IMG/VR virus record: IMGVR_UViG_3300020202_000892
Location: 1,667 to 65,666 of that record
Source of the DNA: a virus
DNA: 64,000 bases
Direction: 5' to 3' (one strand)
Part shown: positions 51,324 to 59,382 of the stretch, piece after piece
How the letters are laid out: every line of letters begins with the position of its first letter
How positions within the stretch are numbered: the stretch's first letter is position 1
Position numbers and translations under genes: made by a program
Notes under the pieces: generated by a model
What the model was told of the DNA's origin: nothing
The model's input: only the letters and a program-made list of their open reading frames with translations
The model's database searches: none

Positions 51324-51628
51324 CCGAGCTGTCGCCCACCCAGGTCGCGCTGCGCGAGCTCACGATGCTCACGAAGTGCTATTGCGACGGAGAGCATCCG
51401 CGGCTGGGGCACAACTGCAGCTTCCGGCCCGACGTCCTGACGCTGGTGACCAACATCGGCAACGTGCTCAAGCTCTGCGATGAGCGCAGCGGGCTGTGGG
51501 ACGACGGTCGCATCCCGGCCGAGGACGTCCGGCGCACGCTGCTGGGGCTGTCCACAGGAGACGGCGGCGCAACCGATGACCCGCCGTGGAGTAACGAGGA
51601 GGGGGAGGGGCCTTCCATGCCGGGATAG
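51320..51628 (+). CDS. Hypothetical protein
   Basis: ATGA overlap; CYC...HNC motif. Confidence 0.6.
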   Translation: MTELSPTQVALRELTMLTKCYCDGEHPRLGHNCSFRPDVLTLVTNIGNVLKLCDERSGLWDDGRIPAEDVRRTLLGLSTGDGGATDDPPWSNEEGEGPSMPG

Positions 51629-51776
51629 GCTCACCGACACCTCACGCCGCGACGCTCCCCAACGTCCCGCGGCGGGGGTGCTGCCGACCTCCAGACGTGA
51701 GACGGCCGGATCCGGGTGCTGGCAACACCTGGTCGGATCCGGCCGTCGACGCCTCAGCAGAAAGCGCAGGTACAGC

Positions 51777-54700
51777 ATGTCATACCCCGACCCGTCGCAC
51801 GACGAGGTCCCGCAACACGTCACTCCGTTCAGCCCTCTGGCTTCGGAGAAGTTCCGCCGCTCCGGTCTGGACGAGGACTTCGTTCGGTCCATGGGAGTGC
51901 GCCCGGTCCTGACCCCCGACGACCTCCCCGAGGGGATCCGGGGGGAGAACTACGCGCCCGTGCCGGGGGTGCTGTTCCCGTGGTCGGACGGCCCCGACTC
52001 GGAGAAGGTCTGGCAGTACCGACCCGACAAGCCGGTGGAGGAGGGGCTCAAGTACGTCTTCCCCAAGGGCCGCCACCAGCCGTTCGGACTGGTTCGCCCG
52101 GCCAGCCGGTACCCGCAGCGCATCGCGATCGTCGAGGGCACGTTGCAGAGCCTGGTCATGGCGCGCTACGCGCCGGATGACGTGGCGGTCTACGCCATCC
52201 CCGGCTGCTGGGGTTGGTCACACGAGGAGAAGCCGGCATCGGGCCTGGGCGTGGTCGACGGGTCGGACGTGTACGTCTTCCTGGACGCGGATGCCGGCAC
52301 GAAGATCGACGTCTACACCGCGGGGGCCGAGCTGGAGAAGGCGTTGCGCGCACGCGGCGCGGCGGATGTCTGGTTCGCCCGGCTGCCGGTGCGCGGGTCC
52401 AACGGGGTCGACGACTTCCTCGGCTCGGTGGAACCGGAGGGGCGGGCGAAGGCGGTCGGCGCGCTGCTGGAAGGTGCGAAGCACAAGCCGGCCGACGCGA
52501 AGCCGAAGGGCAAGACGCGTCGGGGGAACGACCTGTTCCCGACCAACGACACCATCCTCGCCACCACCTGGGCCGACCAGAACCGCGACGTGTTCCGGTG
52601 GCTGGCCGACGACGAGGGGTGGATGCGGTTCCGGTTGGGTCGGTGGGAGGAGACCGGGCCGAGCGTGGTCGGCTCCTCGGTGGGCGTGTTCCTGGCCGGA
52701 GTCGCCGAGGCCTACCAGGCCGAGGGTGATGACGACGAGGTCAAGACGTTGCTCTCGCAGAGCAAGCTCGCCGCGGTGCGCGCACGGGCCAGCGCCTACG
52801 ACGCGATCCACGTGCAGCGCGCCCAGCTCGACCGGCACCCGCGGCTGTGGAACGCAGGTAACGGGGTGATCGACCTCGAGTCCGGCGGGTTCTTCGAGCA
52901 CGACCCGAACCTGATGATGACCACCGGTTCGGATGTGCCCTACCTGCCGGACGCGGCGTGCCCACGGTTCGACGAGTTCTTCGCCGACATCCTCCCCGAC
53001 GAGGAGGTGCGCGCGTTCCTGCTGCGGCTGTTCGGCGTGGCGATGTTCGGCGAGGTGCGCGGGGACGCGCAGATCTTCCCGGTGCTCATCGGCGAGGGAC
53101 GCAACGGCAAGGGCGCGCTCGTGCGGATCATGGAGAAGCTGTTCGGTCGGCACGCGGTGAAGGTGTCAGCCTCGGCGCTGCTGGAGCGCAAGTTCGAGGC
53201 GCACTCCCAGGAGGTGATCAAGCTCCGCGGGAAGCGCCTGGCGACGGCCGAGGAGACCTCGCAGAACGCCCGCTGGGACACCGCGCGGATCAAGAGCTGG
53301 ACCGGCGGGGACACGCTGGTCGGCCGGTTCATGATGCAGAACGACGAGGAGTTCGTCCCGTCGCACACCCTGCTGATGTCGACCAACCACCGGCCGAACG
53401 TGTCGATGGACGAGTCGGCGTTCTGGATGCGCTACCGGGAGGTCCCCTTCACCGTCTCCGTCGAGGGGCGCGAGGACCCCACGCTCGAGCCGCACATCAT
53501 CGGCCAGGAGCTGCCCGGGGTGCTCAACCGCCTGTTGGCTGGCGTCCGGGACTACCTGGATCGCGGGCTCGCGGCACCGGCCGCGGTGGTGGTGGCCACC
53601 GAGGAGGCCCGCGCCGAGACCAACCGCCTGGCGATCTTCGCCGAGGAGATGCTGGTCGTCACGAACGACGAGAACGACCGCGTCCTGCACGCCGACATGC
53701 GCGACCGCGCCGAGAAGTGGTGGTCACAGCACGTGAGGAACGAGCCGTTCCCGTCGGACCGCGGACGGGGCAAGTTCGTCCCGCTGCTGCGCTCCGCGCT
53801 CGGTCTCGTCGAGGGCGTCGTGGGCAACCCGCGGCCCATCGGGAAGGGCAGCGGGCAGCGCACCACGTGGGTCGGGGTGCGGTGGCTCGGGGACGGCGGA
53901 GGGGGCTCCAGGGGGTCTGCCCCATTGCTTCCGCTCAATAGGGCAGACCTGGCCCCGGCGGCCCCTGCACCGGCCGAAGGTCACGAGAAGGTCACGGAGG
54001 CGCCGGAGGGGGGTCTGCCCCATTCCGACGGGGGGTCTGCCCTAAAGTCTGCCCCATCAAATGATCTTGACGATGACAACATCGCAGGTCAAGAGGTGGT
54101 TTCTGAACGGTCTGCCCCATCTGCCCCAAGAAAGGTCCTTGTCTCGCATATAGGAAGAGATGAAGAGGGGTACTTGAACGGTTCAGAAGGTGATGTGTGT
54201 GTCGTAGGGGCGAGTACAGATAGGGCAATAGGGCAGACGGCCCCCCATGGGGCAGCCCCGGCGGCGCTCGGCGACCCCGTCGTCTTCGACCTGGAGACCG
54301 CCGACGCCGAGCACCTGTACGACCACCCGGACCCCCGCGGGTTCGTCAGGATCGCCGGTCGGACCACCCCTGACGGAGTGGTCGTCGACGCCGGTCCGGA
54401 CGCCGTCATCGAGGCGGTGCTCTCGTCACGCCGCGTGATCGGGCACAACGTCGTGCACTTCGACCTGCCCGCGCTGGCTCGAGTCGACGGGAGGGTCGAC
54501 GTGCTCACGATGACGCGCGATCGCCGCGTGCTCGACACCATGATCACCGAGTCGGTGCTGCACCCGATCCTGAACGACAAGTCGGCGGGCGCGGTCGCGA
54601 AGGCCGCGAAGTGGTTCAAGCTCGACGCGGTGTGCGAGCGTCGTGGCATCGGCGGGAAGGTCGACGAGATCGCTCGGCTGGCGAAGCTGCACGGCGGGTT

Positions 54701-56066
54701 CGATCAGATCCCGGTCGACGACCCGGACTACCGGACCTACGTCGCGGGGGACGTCGGAGCCGCCCGGATGCTCGCCGCCCTGCAGGCCTCCGAGATTGCC
54801 GCGCTTCCGCAGGCGCAGCAGGACTACCTCTGGCGCGAGCACCGTGTGCACGCGATCGCGGCGACCATGGGAGCGCAGGGCTTCCTCGTGGATCAGGAGC
54901 TGCTGCAGCGTCGGTTCTGGACCGGCTACAACCGCAAGAACGACCTGAGCCGCGCGCTGATCGCCCGCTACGGCATCCCGACCGTGAAGGCCGACGGCAA
55001 GCGCGCGGAGTCCCCAGCGGCCACCAAGGGCGGCAAGGAGGCCATCCTGGCCGCGTTCGCCTCGCTCGGGGTGGACGTCGACACGATGGAGCGCACGCCC
55101 AAGGGCGCGATCGCGTTCGGCAAGGTGCCGATGGAGAATCTCGCCGAGGCCTACGCCGAGCACGCATGCGCCGAGGAGATCACCGCGCTGGCCGAGCTGG
55201 TGGCCGACGTGAACGGGGTGCGCACCGTCTACGGCACGGCTCTGGAGGCGCTGCGGGCCGACGGCCGGGTGCACCCGGAGGTGGCGACCCTGCAGGCGTC
55301 CGGCCGGTGGTCGGTGCGCAAGCCGGGGCTGACCGTGTTCGGGAAGCGCAACGGGCGCCATGTTGAGCGTGCGGTCTTCCGGGCCGCGGAGGGCAACGCG
55401 CTGTTCGCGATCGACCTGTCCCAGATCGACGCGCGGGCGATCGCGGTGCACTCCCAAGATCACGACTACCTGGACCTGTTCCTGCCCGGCCGCGACGCGC
55501 ACGAGATCGTGGCCCGGATGGTGTGGGGTGACGCGGTCTACGACTCCGACCGCAAGCGCTACCGGCAGGAGATCAAGGCGATCACCCACGGGCTCCCGTA
55601 CGGCATGGGGGTGCCGAAGCTGGCCGCGCACGCGAAGGTGTCCGAGGAGCTCGCACGCCGGGTGGTCGACACGATGAACGAGCGCTTCCCCCGGCTGCAG
55701 GCTTGGAAGGACGAGGTCCGCGAGGAGGTGCGCGCCGGCAAGCCGCTGGACAACGGGTTCGGCCGGGTCATGCTCGCCGACCCGGATCGGGCTTACACCC
55801 AGGCGCCCGCGCTGATGGGCCAGGGCACCGCTCGAGACCTGATGATGGAGGCGTTGCTGCGGCTGCCCGACTTCGCCGTGCGGATGCTGCGCGCCCAGGT
55901 GCACGACGAGGCCGTGTTCGAGGTCCCGCTCGTGCTGGCCGACCAGATCGTCCCGAGGATCGAGCAGGCGTTCAACTTCGAGTGGGCGCCCCCCGGCGCC
56001 TCGCGTCCGGTGCAGATCGTGGCGGAGGCGGGCAAGCTGGGGGTCTCGTGGGCCGAGTGCTACTAG
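51777..56066 (+). CDS. Primase (Toprim)-SF3/D5 helicase-family A DNA polymerase fusion
   Basis: Toprim IVEG...LDAD; Walker A GEGRNGKG; exonuclease VFDLET, GHNVVHFD; Pol motifs DLSQIDAR, RQEIKAITHGLPYG, QVHDE in one ORF. Confidence 0.92.
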   Translation: MSYPDPSHDEVPQHVTPFSPLASEKFRRSGLDEDFVRSMGVRPVLTPDDLPEGIRGENYAPVPGVLFPWSDGPDSEKVWQYRPDKPVEEGLKYVFPKGRHQPFGLVRPASRYPQRIAIVEGTLQSLVMARYAPDDVAVYAIPGCWGWSHEEKPASGLGVVDGSDVYVFLDADAGTKIDVYTAGAELEKALRARGAADVWFARLPVRGSNGVDDFLGSVEPEGRAKAVGALLEGAKHKPADAKPKGKTRRGNDLFPTNDTILATTWADQNRDVFRWLADDEGWMRFRLGRWEETGPSVVGSSVGVFLAGVAEAYQAEGDDDEVKTLLSQSKLAAVRARASAYDAIHVQRAQLDRHPRLWNAGNGVIDLESGGFFEHDPNLMMTTGSDVPYLPDAACPRFDEFFADILPDEEVRAFLLRLFGVAMFGEVRGDAQIFPVLIGEGRNGKGALVRIMEKLFGRHAVKVSASALLERKFEAHSQEVIKLRGKRLATAEETSQNARWDTARIKSWTGGDTLVGRFMMQNDEEFVPSHTLLMSTNHRPNVSMDESAFWMRYREVPFTVSVEGREDPTLEPHIIGQELPGVLNRLLAGVRDYLDRGLAAPAAVVVATEEARAETNRLAIFAEEMLVVTNDENDRVLHADMRDRAEKWWSQHVRNEPFPSDRGRGKFVPLLRSALGLVEGVVGNPRPIGKGSGQRTTWVGVRWLGDGGGGSRGSAPLLPLNRADLAPAAPAPAEGHEKVTEAPEGGLPHSDGGSALKSAPSNDLDDDNIAGQEVVSERSAPSAPRKVLVSHIGRDEEGYLNGSEGDVCVVGASTDRAIGQTAPHGAAPAALGDPVVFDLETADAEHLYDHPDPRGFVRIAGRTTPDGVVVDAGPDAVIEAVLSSRRVIGHNVVHFDLPALARVDGRVDVLTMTRDRRVLDTMITESVLHPILNDKSAGAVAKAAKWFKLDAVCERRGIGGKVDEIARLAKLHGGFDQIPVDDPDYRTYVAGDVGAARMLAALQASEIAALPQAQQDYLWREHRVHAIAATMGAQGFLVDQELLQRRFWTGYNRKNDLSRALIARYGIPTVKADGKRAESPAATKGGKEAILAAFASLGVDVDTMERTPKGAIAFGKVPMENLAEAYAEHACAEEITALAELVADVNGVRTVYGTALEALRADGRVHPEVATLQASGRWSVRKPGLTVFGKRNGRHVERAVFRAAEGNALFAIDLSQIDARAIAVHSQDHDYLDLFLPGRDAHEIVARMVWGDAVYDSDRKRYRQEIKAITHGLPYGMGVPKLAAHAKVSEELARRVVDTMNERFPRLQAWKDEVREEVRAGKPLDNGFGRVMLADPDRAYTQAPALMGQGTARDLMMEALLRLPDFAVRMLRAQVHDEAVFEVPLVLADQIVPRIEQAFNFEWAPPGASRPVQIVAEAGKLGVSWAECY
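53914..54255. repeat. Iteron-like repeat cluster (TCTGCCCYA core), putative replication origin
   Basis: About 9 direct and inverted copies in a visibly AT-richer segment of the helicase-polymerase linker. Confidence 0.65.
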
Positions 56067-56312: not shown

Positions 56313-56342
56313 TTGCGGGGGGACGGCGTAGCGCGCTACAGT
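56313..56342 (+). promoter_or_regulatory. Promoter for the ncRNA-Ro60 operon
   Basis: TTGCGG-18 nt-TACAGT. Confidence 0.6.
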
Positions 56343-56518
56343 AGTTGCAATGCCGCAAGGCAGAATCGCCCGGGAGCTGGCCTCGCCCGGGACAGACGGA
56401 GCAGATGGCTGACGGTCGGGAACAGAGGGCCTCGTGGTGGGGGCCCGCGGGAACGACCGGGAGGAGCGGGTGCCAGGTCACGGCTCACCACCGTGGACGG
56501 TGCCCTCCTCCTCCGAAC

Positions 56519-56589
56519 GCCCCGCTGGTGTAGCGGTAGCACGCCTGCCCCTCAAGCAGGTGGCACGGGTTCAACTCCCGTGCGGGGTA
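56519..56589 (+). tRNA. tRNA-Glu (CTC)
   Basis: Acceptor GCCCCGC/GCGGGGT, D GTGT..GCAC, anticodon arm CCTGC-CCCTCAA-GCAGG, T arm ACGGG-TTCAACT-CCCGT; CCA not encoded. Confidence 0.88.
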
Positions 56590-56742
56590 CGAGGATGGGC
56601 CGGAGGAGCTCGGTTAACTGTTAATCCATGTGTCGCTGGTTCGAGTCCAGTCGGTGCTCCGTAGCCATTCGGACGCGCTGTAGCTCAGTTGGTAGAGCAA
56701 TGGCCCGCAAGGGTATCCGGATCCGCAACACGCCCGACCCCT
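56590..56742 (+). ncRNA. Y-RNA-like unit 1 with circularly permuted tRNA module (Asn-GTT-like loop)
   Basis: Closing stem GGATGGGC/GCCCGACC; T arm, loop-closed acceptor stem, then D arm GCTCAGTTGGTAGAGC. Confidence 0.7.
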
Positions 56743-56859
56743 ATAACTGGATATCGAAGGACGGGCCGATCGCCATCGGTTATCCGCTGCCAGGGCTTCG
56801 GCCCATTGTTCTGGGGTTCTAGCGGGCCCCGCCCGGTGGTGCAGCGCCACGCCCGTCCT
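56743..56859 (+). ncRNA. Y-RNA-like unit 2
   Basis: Stem AGGACGGGC/GCCCGTCCT; shared ATAAC..ATATCGAAG leader and TCGGTT; GGGC-TTCG-GCCC hairpin. Confidence 0.6.
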
Positions 56860-56860
56860 C

Positions 56861-56965
56861 CAACTACATAACGAACGGGCCGGATGTCATCGGTTCTCGG
56901 CTGGAAGGCCCGAAAGGGCTTGCCGTTTCGATCACGGCGCCCGGTGTCAGCAACACGCCCGTTCG
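56861..56965 (+). ncRNA. Y-RNA-like unit 3 (contains a T arm)
   Basis: Stem CGAACGGGC/GCCCGTTCG; T arm GCCGT-TTCGATC-ACGGC; GCCC-GAAA-GGGC hairpin. Confidence 0.62.
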
Positions 56966-56967
56966 CC

Positions 56968-57120
56968 ATAACTCGATATCGAAGGACGGGCCGGAGGGTA
57001 GTTCGGTTACCCCTTGAGGAGGGCGTAGTTCGGGTTCGAATCCCGGTCCCCGACCCAACGTGTCGGGGATGGTGTAACGGCAGCACGCGCAAACCCCGGA
57101 CCCCACAACACGCCCGTCCT
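56968..57120 (+). ncRNA. Y-RNA-like unit 4 with circularly permuted tRNA module
   Basis: Stem AGGACGGGC/GCCCGTCCT; T loop TTCGAAT; acceptor TCCCCGAC-CCAACGT-GTCGGGGA; D arm TGGTGTAACGGCAGCAC. Confidence 0.72.
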
Positions 57121-57124
57121 GTTC

Positions 57125-57200
57125 GCCTCGCTGGTCCAACGGATCACGACGCATCCCTACGGAGGATGAGATCCGGGTTCAACTCCTGGGCGGGGCACCA
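57125..57200 (+). tRNA. tRNA-Arg (ACG)
   Basis: Acceptor GCCTCGC/GCGGGGC, anticodon arm CATCC-CTACGGA-GGATG, T arm CCGGG-TTCAACT-CCTGG, encoded ACCA. Confidence 0.9.
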
Positions 57201-57269
57201 GGCCCCTGGGGGTGCGCCGGTGATGCCGAGCGTTACGCACTCGCCCGGCAGGTAGCCGCCCCAGGGGCC
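57201..57269 (+). ncRNA. Unassigned structured RNA element
   Basis: 11-bp stem GGCCCCTGGGG/CCCCAGGGGCC enclosing GTGCG/CGCAC. Confidence 0.4.
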
Positions 57270-57274
57270 TGCTG

Positions 57275-57401
57275 ATAACTCGATAATGAAGAGTGGGCCG
57301 GAGACGGTCGGTTATCCTCACTCGAAATGAGGGTCGCCCGGTTCGATTCCGGGGTCGCCTGGTTGGCAGTCCTTTTCCGGCAGTCACAACACGCCCATTC
57401 T
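57275..57401 (+). ncRNA. Y-RNA-like unit 5 (anticodon arm CGA plus T arm, no D arm)
   Basis: Stem AGAGTGGGC/GCCCATTCT; CCTCA-CTCGAAA-TGAGG; CCCGG-TTCGATT-CCGGG. Confidence 0.68.
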
Positions 57402-57405
57402 GCTT

Positions 57406-57484
57406 ACAACCGAATATCGAAGACGGGCCGGATGCGATCGGTTCTCCTCTAACAGATCCCCGGTCGCAACTAACACGCCCGTCT
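57406..57484 (+). ncRNA. Y-RNA-like unit 6 (minimal)
   Basis: Stem AGACGGGC/GCCCGTCT; ATATCGAAG, CCGGA..TCGGTT and AACAC motifs retained. Confidence 0.58.
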
Positions 57485-57510
57485 CCTACAACGAGAGGAC
57501 GCTTTTCACC

Positions 57511-59139
57511 ATGTCGAACGACCCGCTCACGCTCGTCTCCACGCGGCGCACGCCGCAGAGCGAGCCGGACCCCGCGGTCGCCGACCGGCAGAAGCGCAAC
57601 GCCGCCGGTGGGTACGCGTTCAAGGCCTCCGACGAGGTCAGCATCCACCGCTTCCTGACGCTCGGCACGACCGGTGGCACGTACTACACCGGCGAGGCGG
57701 ACCTCACCAAGGCCAACGCGGAGGTGGTCCTCGCGGCCGCCCGTGAGCGTGGCGAGTGGCTGGTCGAGCGCGTGGTCGAGGTGTCGGTCGCCGGTCGGGC
57801 CCCGAAGCAGAACCCCGGGATCTTCGCGCTCGCCGCGGTCGCCGGGGTGGGCGACGAGCCCGCCCGCAAGGCCGCGCTGGCCGCGCTCGGGCGGGTCTGC
57901 CGTACCGGCACGACGCTCTTCCTGTTCGCCCGCTACGTGGAGCAGTTCCGCGGGTGGGGGCGCGGGTTGCGGCGTGCGGTCGGCGCCTGGTACCTCGACC
58001 GCCCGGTCGACGACGTGGCCTACCAGGCCGTGAAGTACCGCCAGCGCGAGGGCTGGAGCCACCGCGATCTGCTGCGGCTGGCGCACCCGGAGCCGGATGC
58101 GGACGACGAGGCTCGGCGCGCGCTCTTCCGGTGGATCGTGGACGGCGAGCTGCGCGACGAAGCGCCGGTACTCGTGCACGCGTTCCACGAGGCGCAGACC
58201 GCCGACCGCGAGTCACTGGTCTCGCTCGTGGCCGACCACGCACTGAGCTGGGAGATGCTGCCGGACGCGTCCCGTACCCCCGAGGTGTGGCGCGCGCTGC
58301 TCATCAAGGGGATGCCGCTGGGTGCGTTGCTCCGGCAGCTTCCGACGCTGACCCGCCTCGGCGTGCTCGACGACACGGACATGCAGCTGACCGTTCGCCA
58401 GCAGCTCAGCGACCCGAAGAAGCTGCACAAGGCCCGGGTGCACCCGGTCAACGTGCTGGTGGCACAGAAGACCTACGCGTCCGGGCGCAGCATGCGGGGC
58501 GACTCGACCTGGACCCCGAAGCGCAAGATCATCGACGCCCTCGACGCCGCGTTCTACGCCGCGTACGGCGCGGTGGAGCCCGCGAACAAGCGGACGCTGA
58601 TCGCTCTGGATGTGTCCGGGTCGATGGGGTCGCCAGTGTCCGGGATGCCGCTGAGCGTCCGGGAGGCGGCTGCGGCGATCTCGTTGGTCACCCTGGCCAC
58701 CGAGCCCGCGTGCGACATCGTCGGGTTCACTGGTGGGGGGCTCTGGCGGCGAGCCAGTGCGTCGGTCGGTGAGGCGATCAGTGAGCTGACGATCTCGCCC
58801 CGGCAGCGGCTGGACGACGTGGTCCGCTACACGTCCAACCTGCCGTTCGGCTCGACCGACTGCGCGCTTCCGATGATCTGGGCCGAGCGGAACGGCCGGG
58901 ACTACGACACCATCATCGTGATCACGGATAACGAGACGTGGGCGGGCAACACCCATCCCCACCAGGCGTTGGAGGCCTACCGGCGCAAGGTCGGGCACGA
59001 CGTCCGGCAGATCGTGATCGGGATGACCGCCAACGACGTGTCGATCGCCGACCCGAACGACCCGCTCACGCTGGACGTTGCCGGCTTCGACTCGGCCGTG
59101 CCGAACCTCGTTGCCGACTTCTCCCGCGGGACGGTCTGA
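57511..59139 (+). CDS. rsr: Ro60/Rsr (TROVE plus vWA) RNA-binding protein
   Basis: NAAGGYAF...RFLTLGTTGGTYY N-terminus; MIDAS ALDVSGSM; TDCALPM; IVITDNETW; LDVAGFDS. Confidence 0.95.
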   Translation: MSNDPLTLVSTRRTPQSEPDPAVADRQKRNAAGGYAFKASDEVSIHRFLTLGTTGGTYYTGEADLTKANAEVVLAAARERGEWLVERVVEVSVAGRAPKQNPGIFALAAVAGVGDEPARKAALAALGRVCRTGTTLFLFARYVEQFRGWGRGLRRAVGAWYLDRPVDDVAYQAVKYRQREGWSHRDLLRLAHPEPDADDEARRALFRWIVDGELRDEAPVLVHAFHEAQTADRESLVSLVADHALSWEMLPDASRTPEVWRALLIKGMPLGALLRQLPTLTRLGVLDDTDMQLTVRQQLSDPKKLHKARVHPVNVLVAQKTYASGRSMRGDSTWTPKRKIIDALDAAFYAAYGAVEPANKRTLIALDVSGSMGSPVSGMPLSVREAAAAISLVTLATEPACDIVGFTGGGLWRRASASVGEAISELTISPRQRLDDVVRYTSNLPFGSTDCALPMIWAERNGRDYDTIIVITDNETWAGNTHPHQALEAYRRKVGHDVRQIVIGMTANDVSIADPNDPLTLDVAGFDSAVPNLVADFSRGTV

Positions 59140-59148
59140 GCGAGGTCC

Positions 59149-59382
59149 ATGATGGACGCGCGAGCGATGCGCGCCCGGGAGGAGCACCGGCTGGCCGGCG
59201 AGTCCGAGCGACTTGCCGGCCAGCACCGTGCGCAGCGAGACCACCTGATCCGCGAGCTGCGCGCCGAGGGGTGGAGCTACACCCGGATCTCGCACGCCGT
59301 GGGTTGCGGGTGGGAGCTCGTCCGCGCGGTGTGCAAGAACCGGGTCGGTCCCGGCACCCGCAGTCGACATCGGGAGGGCTGA
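59149..59382 (+). CDS. Small HTH protein
   Basis: RDHLIRELRAEGWSYTRISHAVGCGWELVRAV. Confidence 0.75.
   Translation: MMDARAMRAREEHRLAGESERLAGQHRAQRDHLIRELRAEGWSYTRISHAVGCGWELVRAVCKNRVGPGTRSRHREG

What the first reader, a model, noticed from the sequence alone, without database searches (positions are those of the whole stretch)
56590..59139. Array of six paralogous Y-RNA-like modules feeding a phage Ro60 (TROVE) gene
Seen: six units lie directly upstream of rsr. Each is closed by its own terminal stem, and the stems co-vary between copies (AGGACGGGC/GCCCGTCCT, CGAACGGGC/GCCCGTTCG, AGAGTGGGC/GCCCATTCT, AGACGGGC/GCCCGTCT, GGATGGGC/GCCCGACC). Most share an ATAAC..ATATCGAAG leader, a CCGGA-N5-7-TCGGTT motif, a 3' CCGG and a (C)AACAC loop. 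The interiors differ: permuted tRNA, T arm only, anticodon plus T arm, or minimal. Known: Ro60/Rsr binds Y RNAs, and bacterial YrlA RNAs have a Ro-binding stem plus a tRNA-like domain and lie next to rsr. Inference: this is a modular phage RNP system in which one Ro60 carries six different RNA cargos, possibly recruiting different host enzymes or acting as decoys. I know of Ro/Y pairs with one or two Y RNAs; a six-member diversified array looks unusual.
Basis: partly seen in the sequence, partly recalled or inferred. Interest (0 to 1): 0.92.

Follow-up and report, generated by a model that had tools for sequence, protein, structure and literature searches.

The report
Six Y RNAs upstream of phage Ro60
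A soil phage carries six different small RNAs with the handle that Ro60 proteins are known to bind, placed with two tRNA genes in front of its own Ro60 gene. This is the large end of a gene layout that is common but unannotated in actinobacteria and their phages.

Summary
A covariance model built only from other loci finds exactly six matches in the whole 69.9-kb phage record. All six lie on the rsr strand at 56592-57485 (E 6e-21 to 6e-7; the next hit has E 0.63).

Each unit has the Y-RNA layout: a closing stem, a bulged C, an internal loop, an upper stem and a variable interior. Covariation in 53 homologous units supports this structure. U1 and U4 carry a YrlA-type permuted tRNA-like domain. 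U5 has a T arm only, U2 and U3 have other hairpins, and U6 is minimal.

tRNA-Glu abuts U1 and tRNA-Arg abuts U4, which points to one processed transcript. The downstream gene is a full-length Ro60 (E 2e-106 to Deinococcus Rsr).

Arrays are the rule rather than the exception. Seventy-five cellular actinobacterial rsr loci carry 0-4 units, and 64 viral loci carry 0-6 by the same model (up to 7 with both models). Six is therefore the upper tail, not a new kind of system.

Two further parts emerged. A palindrome overlaps the -10 of the operon promoter (56326-56341), and a small HTH gene follows rsr (59149-59382). The two are gained and lost together across loci.

Ro60 binding, expression and function remain untested. 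This scan has already noted multi-RNA Ro-like loci in other phages.

The parts
56313..56342 (+). Putative promoter and operator. A -35-like TTGCGG lies at 56313-56318, followed by an 18-nt spacer and a -10 TACAGT at 56337-56342. The palindrome GCGTAGCGCGCTACAG at 56326-56341 overlaps the -10.
   Evidence: Read. It is the only match to [C/G]TGTA-N6-TACA[C/G] (at most 1 substitution) in the 64-kb window. The same palindrome sits over the -10 just upstream of the first Y unit in 30 of 74 cellular loci and 14 of 53 viral loci. Promoter function is inferred; the generic sigma-70 scan found nothing here.
56519..56589 (+). tRNA-Glu(CUC) with no encoded CCA. U1 starts 2 nt after its discriminator base.
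   Evidence: ARAGORN; Rfam tRNA 61.3 bits.
56592..56740 (+). U1: a YrlA-type Y RNA. It has the handle, a T arm, an acceptor-like stem carrying an extra hairpin, a D arm and a GNRA hairpin.
   Evidence: R2 60.8 bits, E 3.7e-13. Rfam YrlA 35.7 bits, below the threshold of 69, E 9e-6. Closing stem 7/9 bp.
56758..56859 (+). U2: a Y RNA handle with two GC-rich hairpins inside and no clear tRNA-like arm.
   Evidence: R1 37.3 bits; R2 35.8 bits, E 5.9e-7. Closing stem 9/9 bp, upper stem 9 bp.
56872..56965 (+). U3: a Y RNA handle with a GNRA hairpin and a T-arm-like hairpin (loop UUCGAUC).
   Evidence: R1 41.3 bits; R2 42.3 bits. Closing stem 9/9 bp. The T-arm likeness is read from the sequence only.
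56983..57120 (+). U4: a full YrlA-type Y RNA. It has the handle, a hairpin, a T arm, a 7-bp acceptor-like stem whose loop begins C-CCA, and a D arm. It ends 4 nt before tRNA-Arg.
   Evidence: R2 92.4 bits, E 5.5e-21, aligned over the full model. Closing stem 9/9 bp.
57125..57200 (+). tRNA-Arg(ACG) with an encoded CCA.
   Evidence: ARAGORN; Rfam tRNA 47.8 bits.
57199..57271 (+). Long GC-rich hairpin with a 13-bp perfect outer stem, directly after tRNA-Arg. It splits the array into blocks of 4 and 2 units. It is a candidate terminator, attenuator or processing structure.
   Evidence: MFE -49.6 kcal/mol, z -3.46, 0 of 200 shuffles fold as well. No U tract follows. Its role is inferred.
57290..57401 (+). 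U5: a Y RNA handle with a 5-bp hairpin bearing a 7-nt loop, a T arm and a degenerate remainder.
   Evidence: R2 62.6 bits; R1 46.4 bits. Rfam nematode stem-bulge RNA RF01656 27.1 bits, E 0.0055, below threshold.
57420..57485 (+). U6: a minimal Y RNA consisting of the handle and an 18-nt apical loop. It ends 25 nt before the rsr start codon and 7 nt before the GAGAGGA ribosome-binding site.
   Evidence: R1 62.8 bits; R2 43.7 bits. Closing stem 8/8 bp, upper stem 9 bp.
57511..59139 (+). rsr: Ro60 orthologue of 542 aa with a TROVE ring and a vWA domain.
   Evidence: Pfam vWA_Ro60 2.9e-57 and TROVE 1e-43. PDB sequence matches: 2nvo Deinococcus Rsr 2e-106, 9nen (RNA-binding protein RO60) 8e-97, 1yvp (60-kDa SS-A/Ro ribonucleoprotein) 8e-92.
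59149..59382 (+). Small HTH protein of 77 aa, starting 9 nt after the rsr stop codon. It is the candidate repressor for the palindromic operator.
   Evidence: 52% identical to the gene after rsr in Mycobacterium phage Farewell, which is annotated as an HTH DNA-binding protein. The AlphaFold model has pLDDT 88 and shows a long helix followed by two short helices. The best fold matches are HTH DNA-binding domains, but none is significant. It co-occurs with the palindrome in 48 loci, both are absent in 74, and 8 are discordant. The independent-pairs sign test gives p about 0.006.

Best explanation
This is a phage Ro60/Y-RNA operon. Its order is: promoter with a palindromic operator, tRNA-Glu, four Y RNAs, tRNA-Arg, a hairpin, two Y RNAs, rsr, and a small HTH gene. 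The six RNAs are paralogous Y RNAs. They share the Ro60-binding type of handle: a closing stem, a bulged C within GGGCCGGA, a CAACAC internal loop, and an upper stem ending UCGG/CCGG. Their interiors differ. The array is probably transcribed as one or two precursors. Host RNase P and the 3'-end tRNA processing enzymes would cut the precursor at the abutting tRNAs. Each mature Y RNA would then bind the phage Ro60 ring through its handle. The variable module would act as a gate or tether, as known Y RNAs do. U1 and U4 mimic tRNA, like YrlA. The HTH protein probably represses the operon at the palindrome. The genes, structures, conservation and co-occurrences are shown here by computation. Transcription, processing, Ro60 binding, the repressor role and any effect on the host are inferred.
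For: A full-length Ro60 gene is present. Model R2, built without any window sequence, finds exactly six units in the window and in the whole record. The proposed two-helix handle pairs in 91.4% of cells across 30 minimal units, against 36-44% when the 3' partners are slid, with 105 double-change cells. The full YrlA-type structure pairs in 94.3% of cells, and 27 of 33 pairs show compensatory changes. In viral rsr loci, all 105 R1 hits and all 161 R2 hits lie on the rsr strand; 180 of 187 merged units lie upstream of rsr. The handle resembles known Ro-binding helices: it gives sub-threshold hits to Rfam YrlA and to nematode stem-bulge RNA (a Y-RNA homologue, by my own knowledge), and relatives carry the exact GCCGAAG form of the published GNCGAAN0-1G motif (PMC4201824). 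tRNAs abut units here and in Gordonia phage Sixama. Published work shows Rsr-bound YrlA and YrlB in M. smegmatis, and two Y-like RNAs bound by a Thermus phage Ro60 that also forms complexes with host PNPase (PMC4201824, PMC12135203). Operator and HTH gene change together across loci.
Against: No expression or binding data exist; the only public runs holding this DNA are soil metagenome DNA. No unit reaches the Rfam YrlA gathering score. The window's motif is GCCGGAG/GCCGGAU/GCCGAUC, one position off the published GNCGAA. The generic promoter scan found no sigma-70 site. The 177 nt between the putative -10 and tRNA-Glu are not unusually structured and remain unexplained. The phage encodes no RtcB and no CCA-adding enzyme. 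Any effector must therefore come from the host and is unknown.
Confidence: 0.8

Rival explanations
1. The units act mainly in cis. They would be Ro60-binding sites in the long rsr leader, through which Ro60 autoregulates its own translation or mRNA stability, rather than six free-standing RNAs.
For: U6 ends 25 nt before the rsr start codon and 7 nt before the ribosome-binding site. In 43 viral loci with at least two units, the median gap from the last unit to rsr is 47 nt. The unit nearest rsr is short in 58% of these loci, against 33% of the other units.
Against: tRNA genes lie between units and must be cut out, which releases the units. In Sixama most units lie downstream of rsr, between tRNAs. 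YrlA and YrlB are stable Rsr-bound RNAs in M. smegmatis (PMC4201824). A strong hairpin separates four of the units from rsr. The two roles are not mutually exclusive.
Confidence: 0.1
2. The units are tRNA-like decoys or substrates that work without Ro60. They might soak up host tRNA-directed nucleases or modification enzymes, and their linkage to rsr would be incidental.
For: U1 and U4 carry T, D and acceptor-like arms. ARAGORN even calls tRNAs inside related units. Many arrays sit at the end of phage tRNA clusters.
Against: The most conserved part is the non-tRNA handle, and it is present in all units, including U2, U3 and U6, which lack a tRNA-like body. Nearly all hits lie next to rsr on the same strand.
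Confidence: 0.07
3. The units are decaying tRNA pseudogenes or a local repeat family with no function.
For: The units are tandem and lie close to tRNA genes. U2 and U4 have identical closing stems and leaders, which suggests duplication.
Against: Both handle helices and the T, acceptor and D helices show compensatory changes across dozens of loci from phages and several actinobacterial orders. Unit position and strand relative to rsr are conserved.
Confidence: 0.02

Closest known systems
Bacterial YrlA/YrlB Y RNAs with Rsr (S. Typhimurium, M. smegmatis; Chen et al. 2014, PMC4201824; Rfam RF02553)
   Same: They are encoded just upstream of rsr on the same strand. They have a handle plus a tRNA-like domain in which the T arm, an acceptor-like stem-loop and the D arm appear in permuted order, as in U1 and U4. 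A second, smaller Y RNA lies beside the first. The paper reports YrlA-like sequences in 22 phages, including mycobacteriophages.
   Different: This locus has six units rather than one or two. Four of the six lack the full tRNA-like domain. No unit reaches the Rfam threshold (best 35.7 bits against 69). Both strands of the handle are conserved, whereas the paper says only the 5' strand is recognisable in the Salmonella and M. smegmatis RNAs. True tRNA genes are interleaved with the units.
Metazoan Y RNAs and nematode stem-bulge RNAs (Rfam RF00019, RF01656)
   Same: The overall layout is shared: a closing stem with a bulged C, an internal loop, an upper stem and a variable loop. The 5' handle resembles GGUCCGAAG...GUUAUC (that sequence is quoted from my own knowledge of human Y1). 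U5 gives a sub-threshold hit to RF01656. Animals have up to four paralogues (PMC4201824).
   Different: These are bacterial-type genes transcribed in an operon with tRNAs, with no pol III features. The interiors are tRNA-like rather than pyrimidine-rich loops. RF00019 gave no hit at E up to 10.
Thermus phage phiLo Ro60 with Yrl1 and Yrl2 (PMC12135203)
   Same: It is a phage-encoded Ro60 with Y-like RNAs directly upstream. In that system, binding and complex formation with host PNPase were shown in vitro.
   Different: It has two RNAs rather than six. The proteins are only distantly related (E 8e-7 over part of the sequence). No tRNA interleaving, operator or HTH gene is described there.
D. radiodurans rsr locus with Yrn1, Yrn2 and further small RNAs (PMC4201824)
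   Same: Several small RNAs are encoded upstream of rsr and are induced together with it. The Y RNA tethers Rsr to PNPase.
   Different: It is a different lineage of handle and tRNA-like module, it is cellular rather than phage-borne, and it has at most four RNAs.

Membership tests
Y RNA (Ro60-partner ncRNA) | The 5' and 3' ends pair into a long closing stem that bears a bulged helix, followed by an internal loop and a second stem. | tested here: met
   All six units: closing stem 7-9 bp, bulged C, G-C pair after the bulge, upper stem 6-9 pairs. In homologues the structure pairs in 91-94% of cells with many compensatory changes.
Y RNA (Ro60-partner ncRNA) | Conserved Ro-binding sequence in the 5' strand (GNCGAAN0-1G in Chen et al. 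2014). | tested here: inconclusive
   The window has GCCGGAG (U1, U4, U5), GCCGGAU (U3, U6) and GCCGAUC (U2), each one position off the motif. GCCG is invariant in 30 of 30 and 23 of 23 homologues, and some relatives carry the exact GCCGAAG.
Y RNA (Ro60-partner ncRNA) | Encoded beside a Ro60 gene on the same strand. | tested here: met
   All six units lie 25-920 nt upstream of rsr on the + strand. The same holds for 180 of 187 units in viral loci.
Y RNA (Ro60-partner ncRNA) | Physically bound by Ro60 and present as a discrete stable RNA. | not testable with these tools
   No RNA run holds this sequence.
YrlA (Rfam RF02553) | Score at or above the Rfam gathering threshold (69 bits). | tested here: not met
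   There is no hit at the gathering threshold. U1 scores 35.7 bits with E 9e-6; the other units give no hit.
YrlA (Rfam RF02553) | A tRNA-like domain with the T arm, an acceptor-like stem-loop and the D arm in that order inside the handle. | tested here: met
   Met for U1 and U4 only (alignment, RNAalifold, R2 alignments). U5 has the T arm alone. U2, U3 and U6 lack the domain.
YrlA (Rfam RF02553) | Recognition by tRNA enzymes (DusA, TruB, RNase P, CCA-adding enzyme). | not testable with these tools
   U4 has a 7-bp acceptor-like stem followed by C-CCA in its loop, which is compatible with such recognition but does not test it.
Ro60/Rsr protein | A TROVE HEAT-repeat ring plus a C-terminal vWA domain at full length. 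| tested here: met
   Pfam TROVE and vWA_Ro60. The protein aligns end to end with 2nvo, 9nen and 1yvp.

The most novel reading that the evidence does not exclude
Phages have expanded the Y-RNA repertoire beyond what cells carry: up to 6-7 units against at most 4 in the 75 cellular loci sampled. The result would be an adaptor set. One Ro60 ring could be loaded with different tRNA-like or non-tRNA-like modules, each coupling it to a different host RNA enzyme or decoying a different tRNA-directed defence. The whole set would be switched by a dedicated HTH repressor acting on an operator shared with cellular rsr loci.
Probability: 0.2. Interest if true: 0.8.

Novelty: new variant of a known kind. 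Interest (0 to 1): 0.55.

Why it matters
What bacterial Ro60 and its Y RNAs do is still largely open. This locus and the survey around it add four points.

- Multi-member Y-RNA arrays are the normal state in actinobacteria and their phages, yet the six GenBank phage records inspected here list no ncRNA at these sites, and only the tRNA-like subclass has an Rfam family.
- Phages carry the largest arrays and interleave them with tRNA genes, which ties Ro60 to tRNA processing or supply.
- The handle keeps both strands of the animal-type Ro-binding helix, which makes these RNAs good material for structural comparison.
- A candidate regulator and its operator are identified, which gives a handle on when the system is switched on.

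Cultured phages with arrays grow on laboratory hosts: Sixama (at least 5 units), Catera (3) and Farewell (2). The questions are therefore directly testable.

Tried and rejected
- Rfam at gathering thresholds finds only the two tRNAs. With relaxed thresholds only U1 (YrlA) and U5 (nematode stem-bulge RNA) give sub-threshold hits, and Y_RNA RF00019 gives none.
- DNA search of the array against 50,697 phage records finds only tRNA-Glu similarity.
- RNAalifold on the minimal units chose a hairpin made of invariant bases (GGCCGG/CCGGUU) that has no covariation. I replaced it with the Y-type structure and tested that.
- Model R1, built from minimal units, misses U1 and U4 even with filters off, because their interiors are too long for it. 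R2 was built to cover them.
- My first regex-plus-stem scanner produced many false hits in GC-rich DNA. It was kept only as a supplement: in the merge it contributes nothing, and those counts rest on R1 and R2 hits alone.
- The ATAAC..ATATCGAAG leader is not a general family feature. A loose version occurs before 30% of 380 units against 9% of random windows, and no position is strongly conserved. I treat it as lineage-specific and of unknown role.
- The 56330-56520 leader is not unusually structured (z -0.43).
- The phage record holds no RtcB and no CCA-adding enzyme. Neighbouring ORFs gave no informative PHROG hits.
- The generic sigma-70 scan found no promoter.
- No RNA sequencing run holds the locus.
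- The fold search for the HTH protein gave only non-significant matches, though all were to HTH domains.
- Literature searches found no description of arrays with more than four members, or of the operator and HTH pair. The 2014 supplementary tables and the 2020 Annual Review were not available, so prior listing of multiple units per phage cannot be excluded.
Full report
**What is there.** The window comes from a 69.9-kb IMG/VR virus record with estimated completeness 92%. The only public runs holding this DNA are soil metagenomes. The ORF at 57511-59139 encodes a 542-aa protein with the Pfam TROVE and vWA_Ro60 domains. It aligns end to end with Deinococcus Rsr (2nvo, E 2e-106) and with two further solved Ro60 chains, 9nen and 1yvp (E 8e-97 and 8e-92). 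It is a genuine Ro60.

The six repeated units lie around them.

**The six units are real.** GGGCCGGA-N4-8-TCGGTT occurs five times against 0.01 expected; U2 has GGGCCGAT instead. Every unit shows the same features when read directly:
- a closing stem of 7-9 pairs, whose outer five or six pairs differ between copies by compensatory changes;
- a bulged C followed by a G-C pair;
- an internal loop whose 3' side is (C)AACAC;
- an upper stem of 6-9 pairs ending in UCGG/CCGG;
- then UUAYC and a variable interior of 18 to 103 nt.

The strongest test is independent of the window. I built covariance model R2 from 23 units of other loci, with no window sequence in the seed. It finds exactly six matches in the 64-kb window, all on the + strand: U4 92.4 bits, U5 62.6, U1 60.8, U6 43.7, U3 42.3 and U2 35.8 (E 5.5e-21 to 5.9e-7). 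The next hit has E 0.63. The whole 69.9-kb record gives the same six.

**The structure is conserved.** I collected 80 viral contigs that encode a relative of this Ro60. Thirty short units from them align cleanly; GCCG, GGUU and several other handle positions are invariant. The Y-type two-helix structure pairs in 91.4% of cells, against 36-44% when the 3' partners are slid by 1-3 columns. It has 105 double-change cells against 14-35 in the slid controls, and no shuffle of 500 reaches the observed values on four of the five measures (2 of 500 on the fifth).

For the long units, RNAalifold recovers a T arm, a 7-bp acceptor-like stem and a D arm, in that order, inside the handle. My full structure pairs in 94.3% of cells, and 27 of 33 pairs show compensatory changes. 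This is the YrlA architecture of Chen et al. 2014 (PMC4201824).

Within the window:
- U4 matches the architecture over its full length.
- U1 matches with an extra hairpin in the acceptor loop and a GNRA hairpin after the D arm.
- U5 keeps the hairpin and T arm but not the rest.
- U2, U3 and U6 match only in the handle.

**Relation to known families.** Rfam finds nothing but the tRNAs at curated thresholds. With relaxed thresholds, U1 hits YrlA at 35.7 bits (threshold 69, E 9e-6). U5 hits the nematode sRNA family RF01656 at 27.1 bits (E 0.0055); these are stem-bulge RNAs, Y-RNA homologues by my own knowledge.

The published 5'-strand motif is GNCGAAN0-1G. The window has GCCGGAG, GCCGGAU or GCCGAUC, and some relatives have GCCGAAG exactly. 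The units work like Y RNAs and belong to that broad kind. Two of them have the YrlA architecture, but none passes the Rfam YrlA threshold, and the minimal and intermediate forms have no family at all.

**How common arrays are.**
- In the viral rsr loci, R1 gave 105 hits and R2 gave 161, every one on the rsr strand. Of 187 merged units, 180 lie upstream of rsr.
- Units per viral locus with at least 1.5 kb upstream, both models merged: 0 in 11 loci, 1 in 9, 2 in 9, 3 in 12, 4 in 13, 5 in 5, 6 in 2 and 7 in 2.
- With R2 alone, the viral distribution is 0:18, 1:6, 2:10, 3:15, 4:10, 5:3, 6:2.
- In 75 cellular actinobacterial rsr loci (Actinomycetospora, Nocardia, Nocardioides, Cellulomonas, Propionibacteriaceae, Mycobacterium and others), R2 gives 0:2, 1:8, 2:33, 3:13, 4:19 and none above four.
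- Cultured phages also carry unannotated units: Catera 3, Farewell 2, Cashline 2 and Sixama at least 5. Their GenBank records list no ncRNA there.

Six is thus above every cellular locus sampled and at the top of the viral range, but it is the tail of a common layout, not a singular one. The literature I could read reports one to four Y RNAs per species and two for a Thermus phage (PMC4201824, PMC12135203). I found no description of larger arrays, but the 2014 supplementary tables were not available. This scan has already noted multi-RNA Ro-like loci in other phage groups.

**Operon anatomy and likely processing.** U1 starts 2 nt after the discriminator base of tRNA-Glu, which has no encoded CCA. 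U4 ends 4 nt before tRNA-Arg, which does encode CCA. In Sixama, four units fill the gaps between consecutive tRNA genes almost exactly. Many viral arrays sit at the end of large tRNA clusters. This implies co-transcription, with release by RNase P and the tRNA 3'-end enzymes; that step is an inference.

A 73-nt GC-rich hairpin follows tRNA-Arg (z -3.46) and may terminate or attenuate transcription before U5-U6-rsr. U6 ends 25 nt before the rsr start codon. A cis effect of Ro60 binding on rsr translation is therefore possible; I keep it as a rival that is not exclusive of the main reading.

**A regulator and its operator (new here).** About 180 nt upstream of tRNA-Glu lies TTGCGG, an 18-nt spacer, then TACAGT. 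A palindrome, GCGTAGCGCGCTACAG (56326-56341), overlaps the -10. It is the only match to [C/G]TGTA-N6-TACA[C/G] in the window. The same palindrome over a -10-like hexamer lies just before the first Y unit in 30 of 74 cellular loci, against a background of 0.008 per 100 nt, and in 14 of 53 viral loci.

Directly after rsr lies a 77-aa ORF at 59149-59382. It is 52% identical to the gene after rsr in phage Farewell, which is annotated as an HTH protein. Its model (pLDDT 88) is one long helix followed by two short ones. The best fold matches are HTH DNA-binding domains, though none is significant.

Across loci, the palindrome and this gene are both present in 48, both absent in 74 and discordant in 8. 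On a Ro60 tree the two traits change 18 and 15 times. In phylogenetically independent pairs they change together about 10.6 times and in opposite directions once (sign test p about 0.006). I infer an autoregulated cassette in which this protein binds the palindrome. Binding is not shown.

**What it most likely does.** By analogy with Deinococcus, Salmonella, M. smegmatis and phage phiLo, the RNAs would bind the outer face of the Ro60 ring through the handle and would gate or tether it. The phage has no RtcB and no CCA-adding enzyme, so any partners must come from the host. Whether the six interiors address different partners, or act as decoys, is open. I put about 0.2 on the adaptor-set reading.

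**Verdict.** This is an unusually large member of a known kind, the Ro60/Y-RNA module. It also yields family-level observations that I did not find described: arrays as the norm, phage-specific expansion, tRNA interleaving, and the operator-HTH pair.

Noticed in passing
window 57040-57075 (inside U4): U4's acceptor-like stem (UCCCCGA/UCGGGGA, 7 bp) is closed by a loop that begins C-CCA. Cutting at the RNase P position would leave a tRNA-like 3' end that already carries CCA. M. smegmatis YrlA is cleaved by RNase P and receives CCA (PMC4201824). Most relatives instead cap this stem with a tetraloop.
   Followed up: partly
L006 3353-3430, L013 2642-2715, L032 3498-3572, L030 3819-3896, L039 3890-3963, L080 2362-2437: ARAGORN calls tRNAs that lie inside YrlA-type Y units. 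It reads the handle 5' strand, the first hairpin and the T arm as a tRNA. Automatic phage annotation may therefore list false tRNAs at rsr loci.
   Followed up: no
L087 (Gordonia phage Sixama) 4425-5173: Y units fill the gaps between consecutive tRNA genes downstream of rsr, border to border. This is a clear cultured example of a mixed tRNA and Y-RNA operon.
   Followed up: partly
L119, L126, L128, L133, L153 (Promicromonospora and one uncultured Actinomycetota MAG): A second pair of Y units lies on the opposite strand 2-3 kb upstream of rsr. These are the only minus-strand hits among 207 in cellular loci.
   Followed up: no
viral loci L004-L083: The palindrome [C/G]TGTA-N6-TACA[C/G] occurs 50 times in the viral loci, but only 14 of these lie just upstream of a Y array. 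Some phages may carry further operators of the same kind elsewhere.
   Followed up: no
window 51480-56066: A single 1528-aa ORF combines D5_N primase-helicase, DUF5906 and family A DNA polymerase domains. It ends about 250 nt before the putative Y/rsr promoter.
   Followed up: no
window 56343-56518: About 175 nt between the putative -10 and tRNA-Glu hold no Y unit and have no unusual fold. Relatives start their first unit 12-45 nt after the -10, so this leader is unexplained.
   Followed up: partly
L084 1849-1986 (phage Farewell gene 35): A 45-aa hypothetical protein is annotated in the short gap between the last Y unit (1759-1829) and rsr. It may be a spurious call in a non-coding leader.
   Followed up: no
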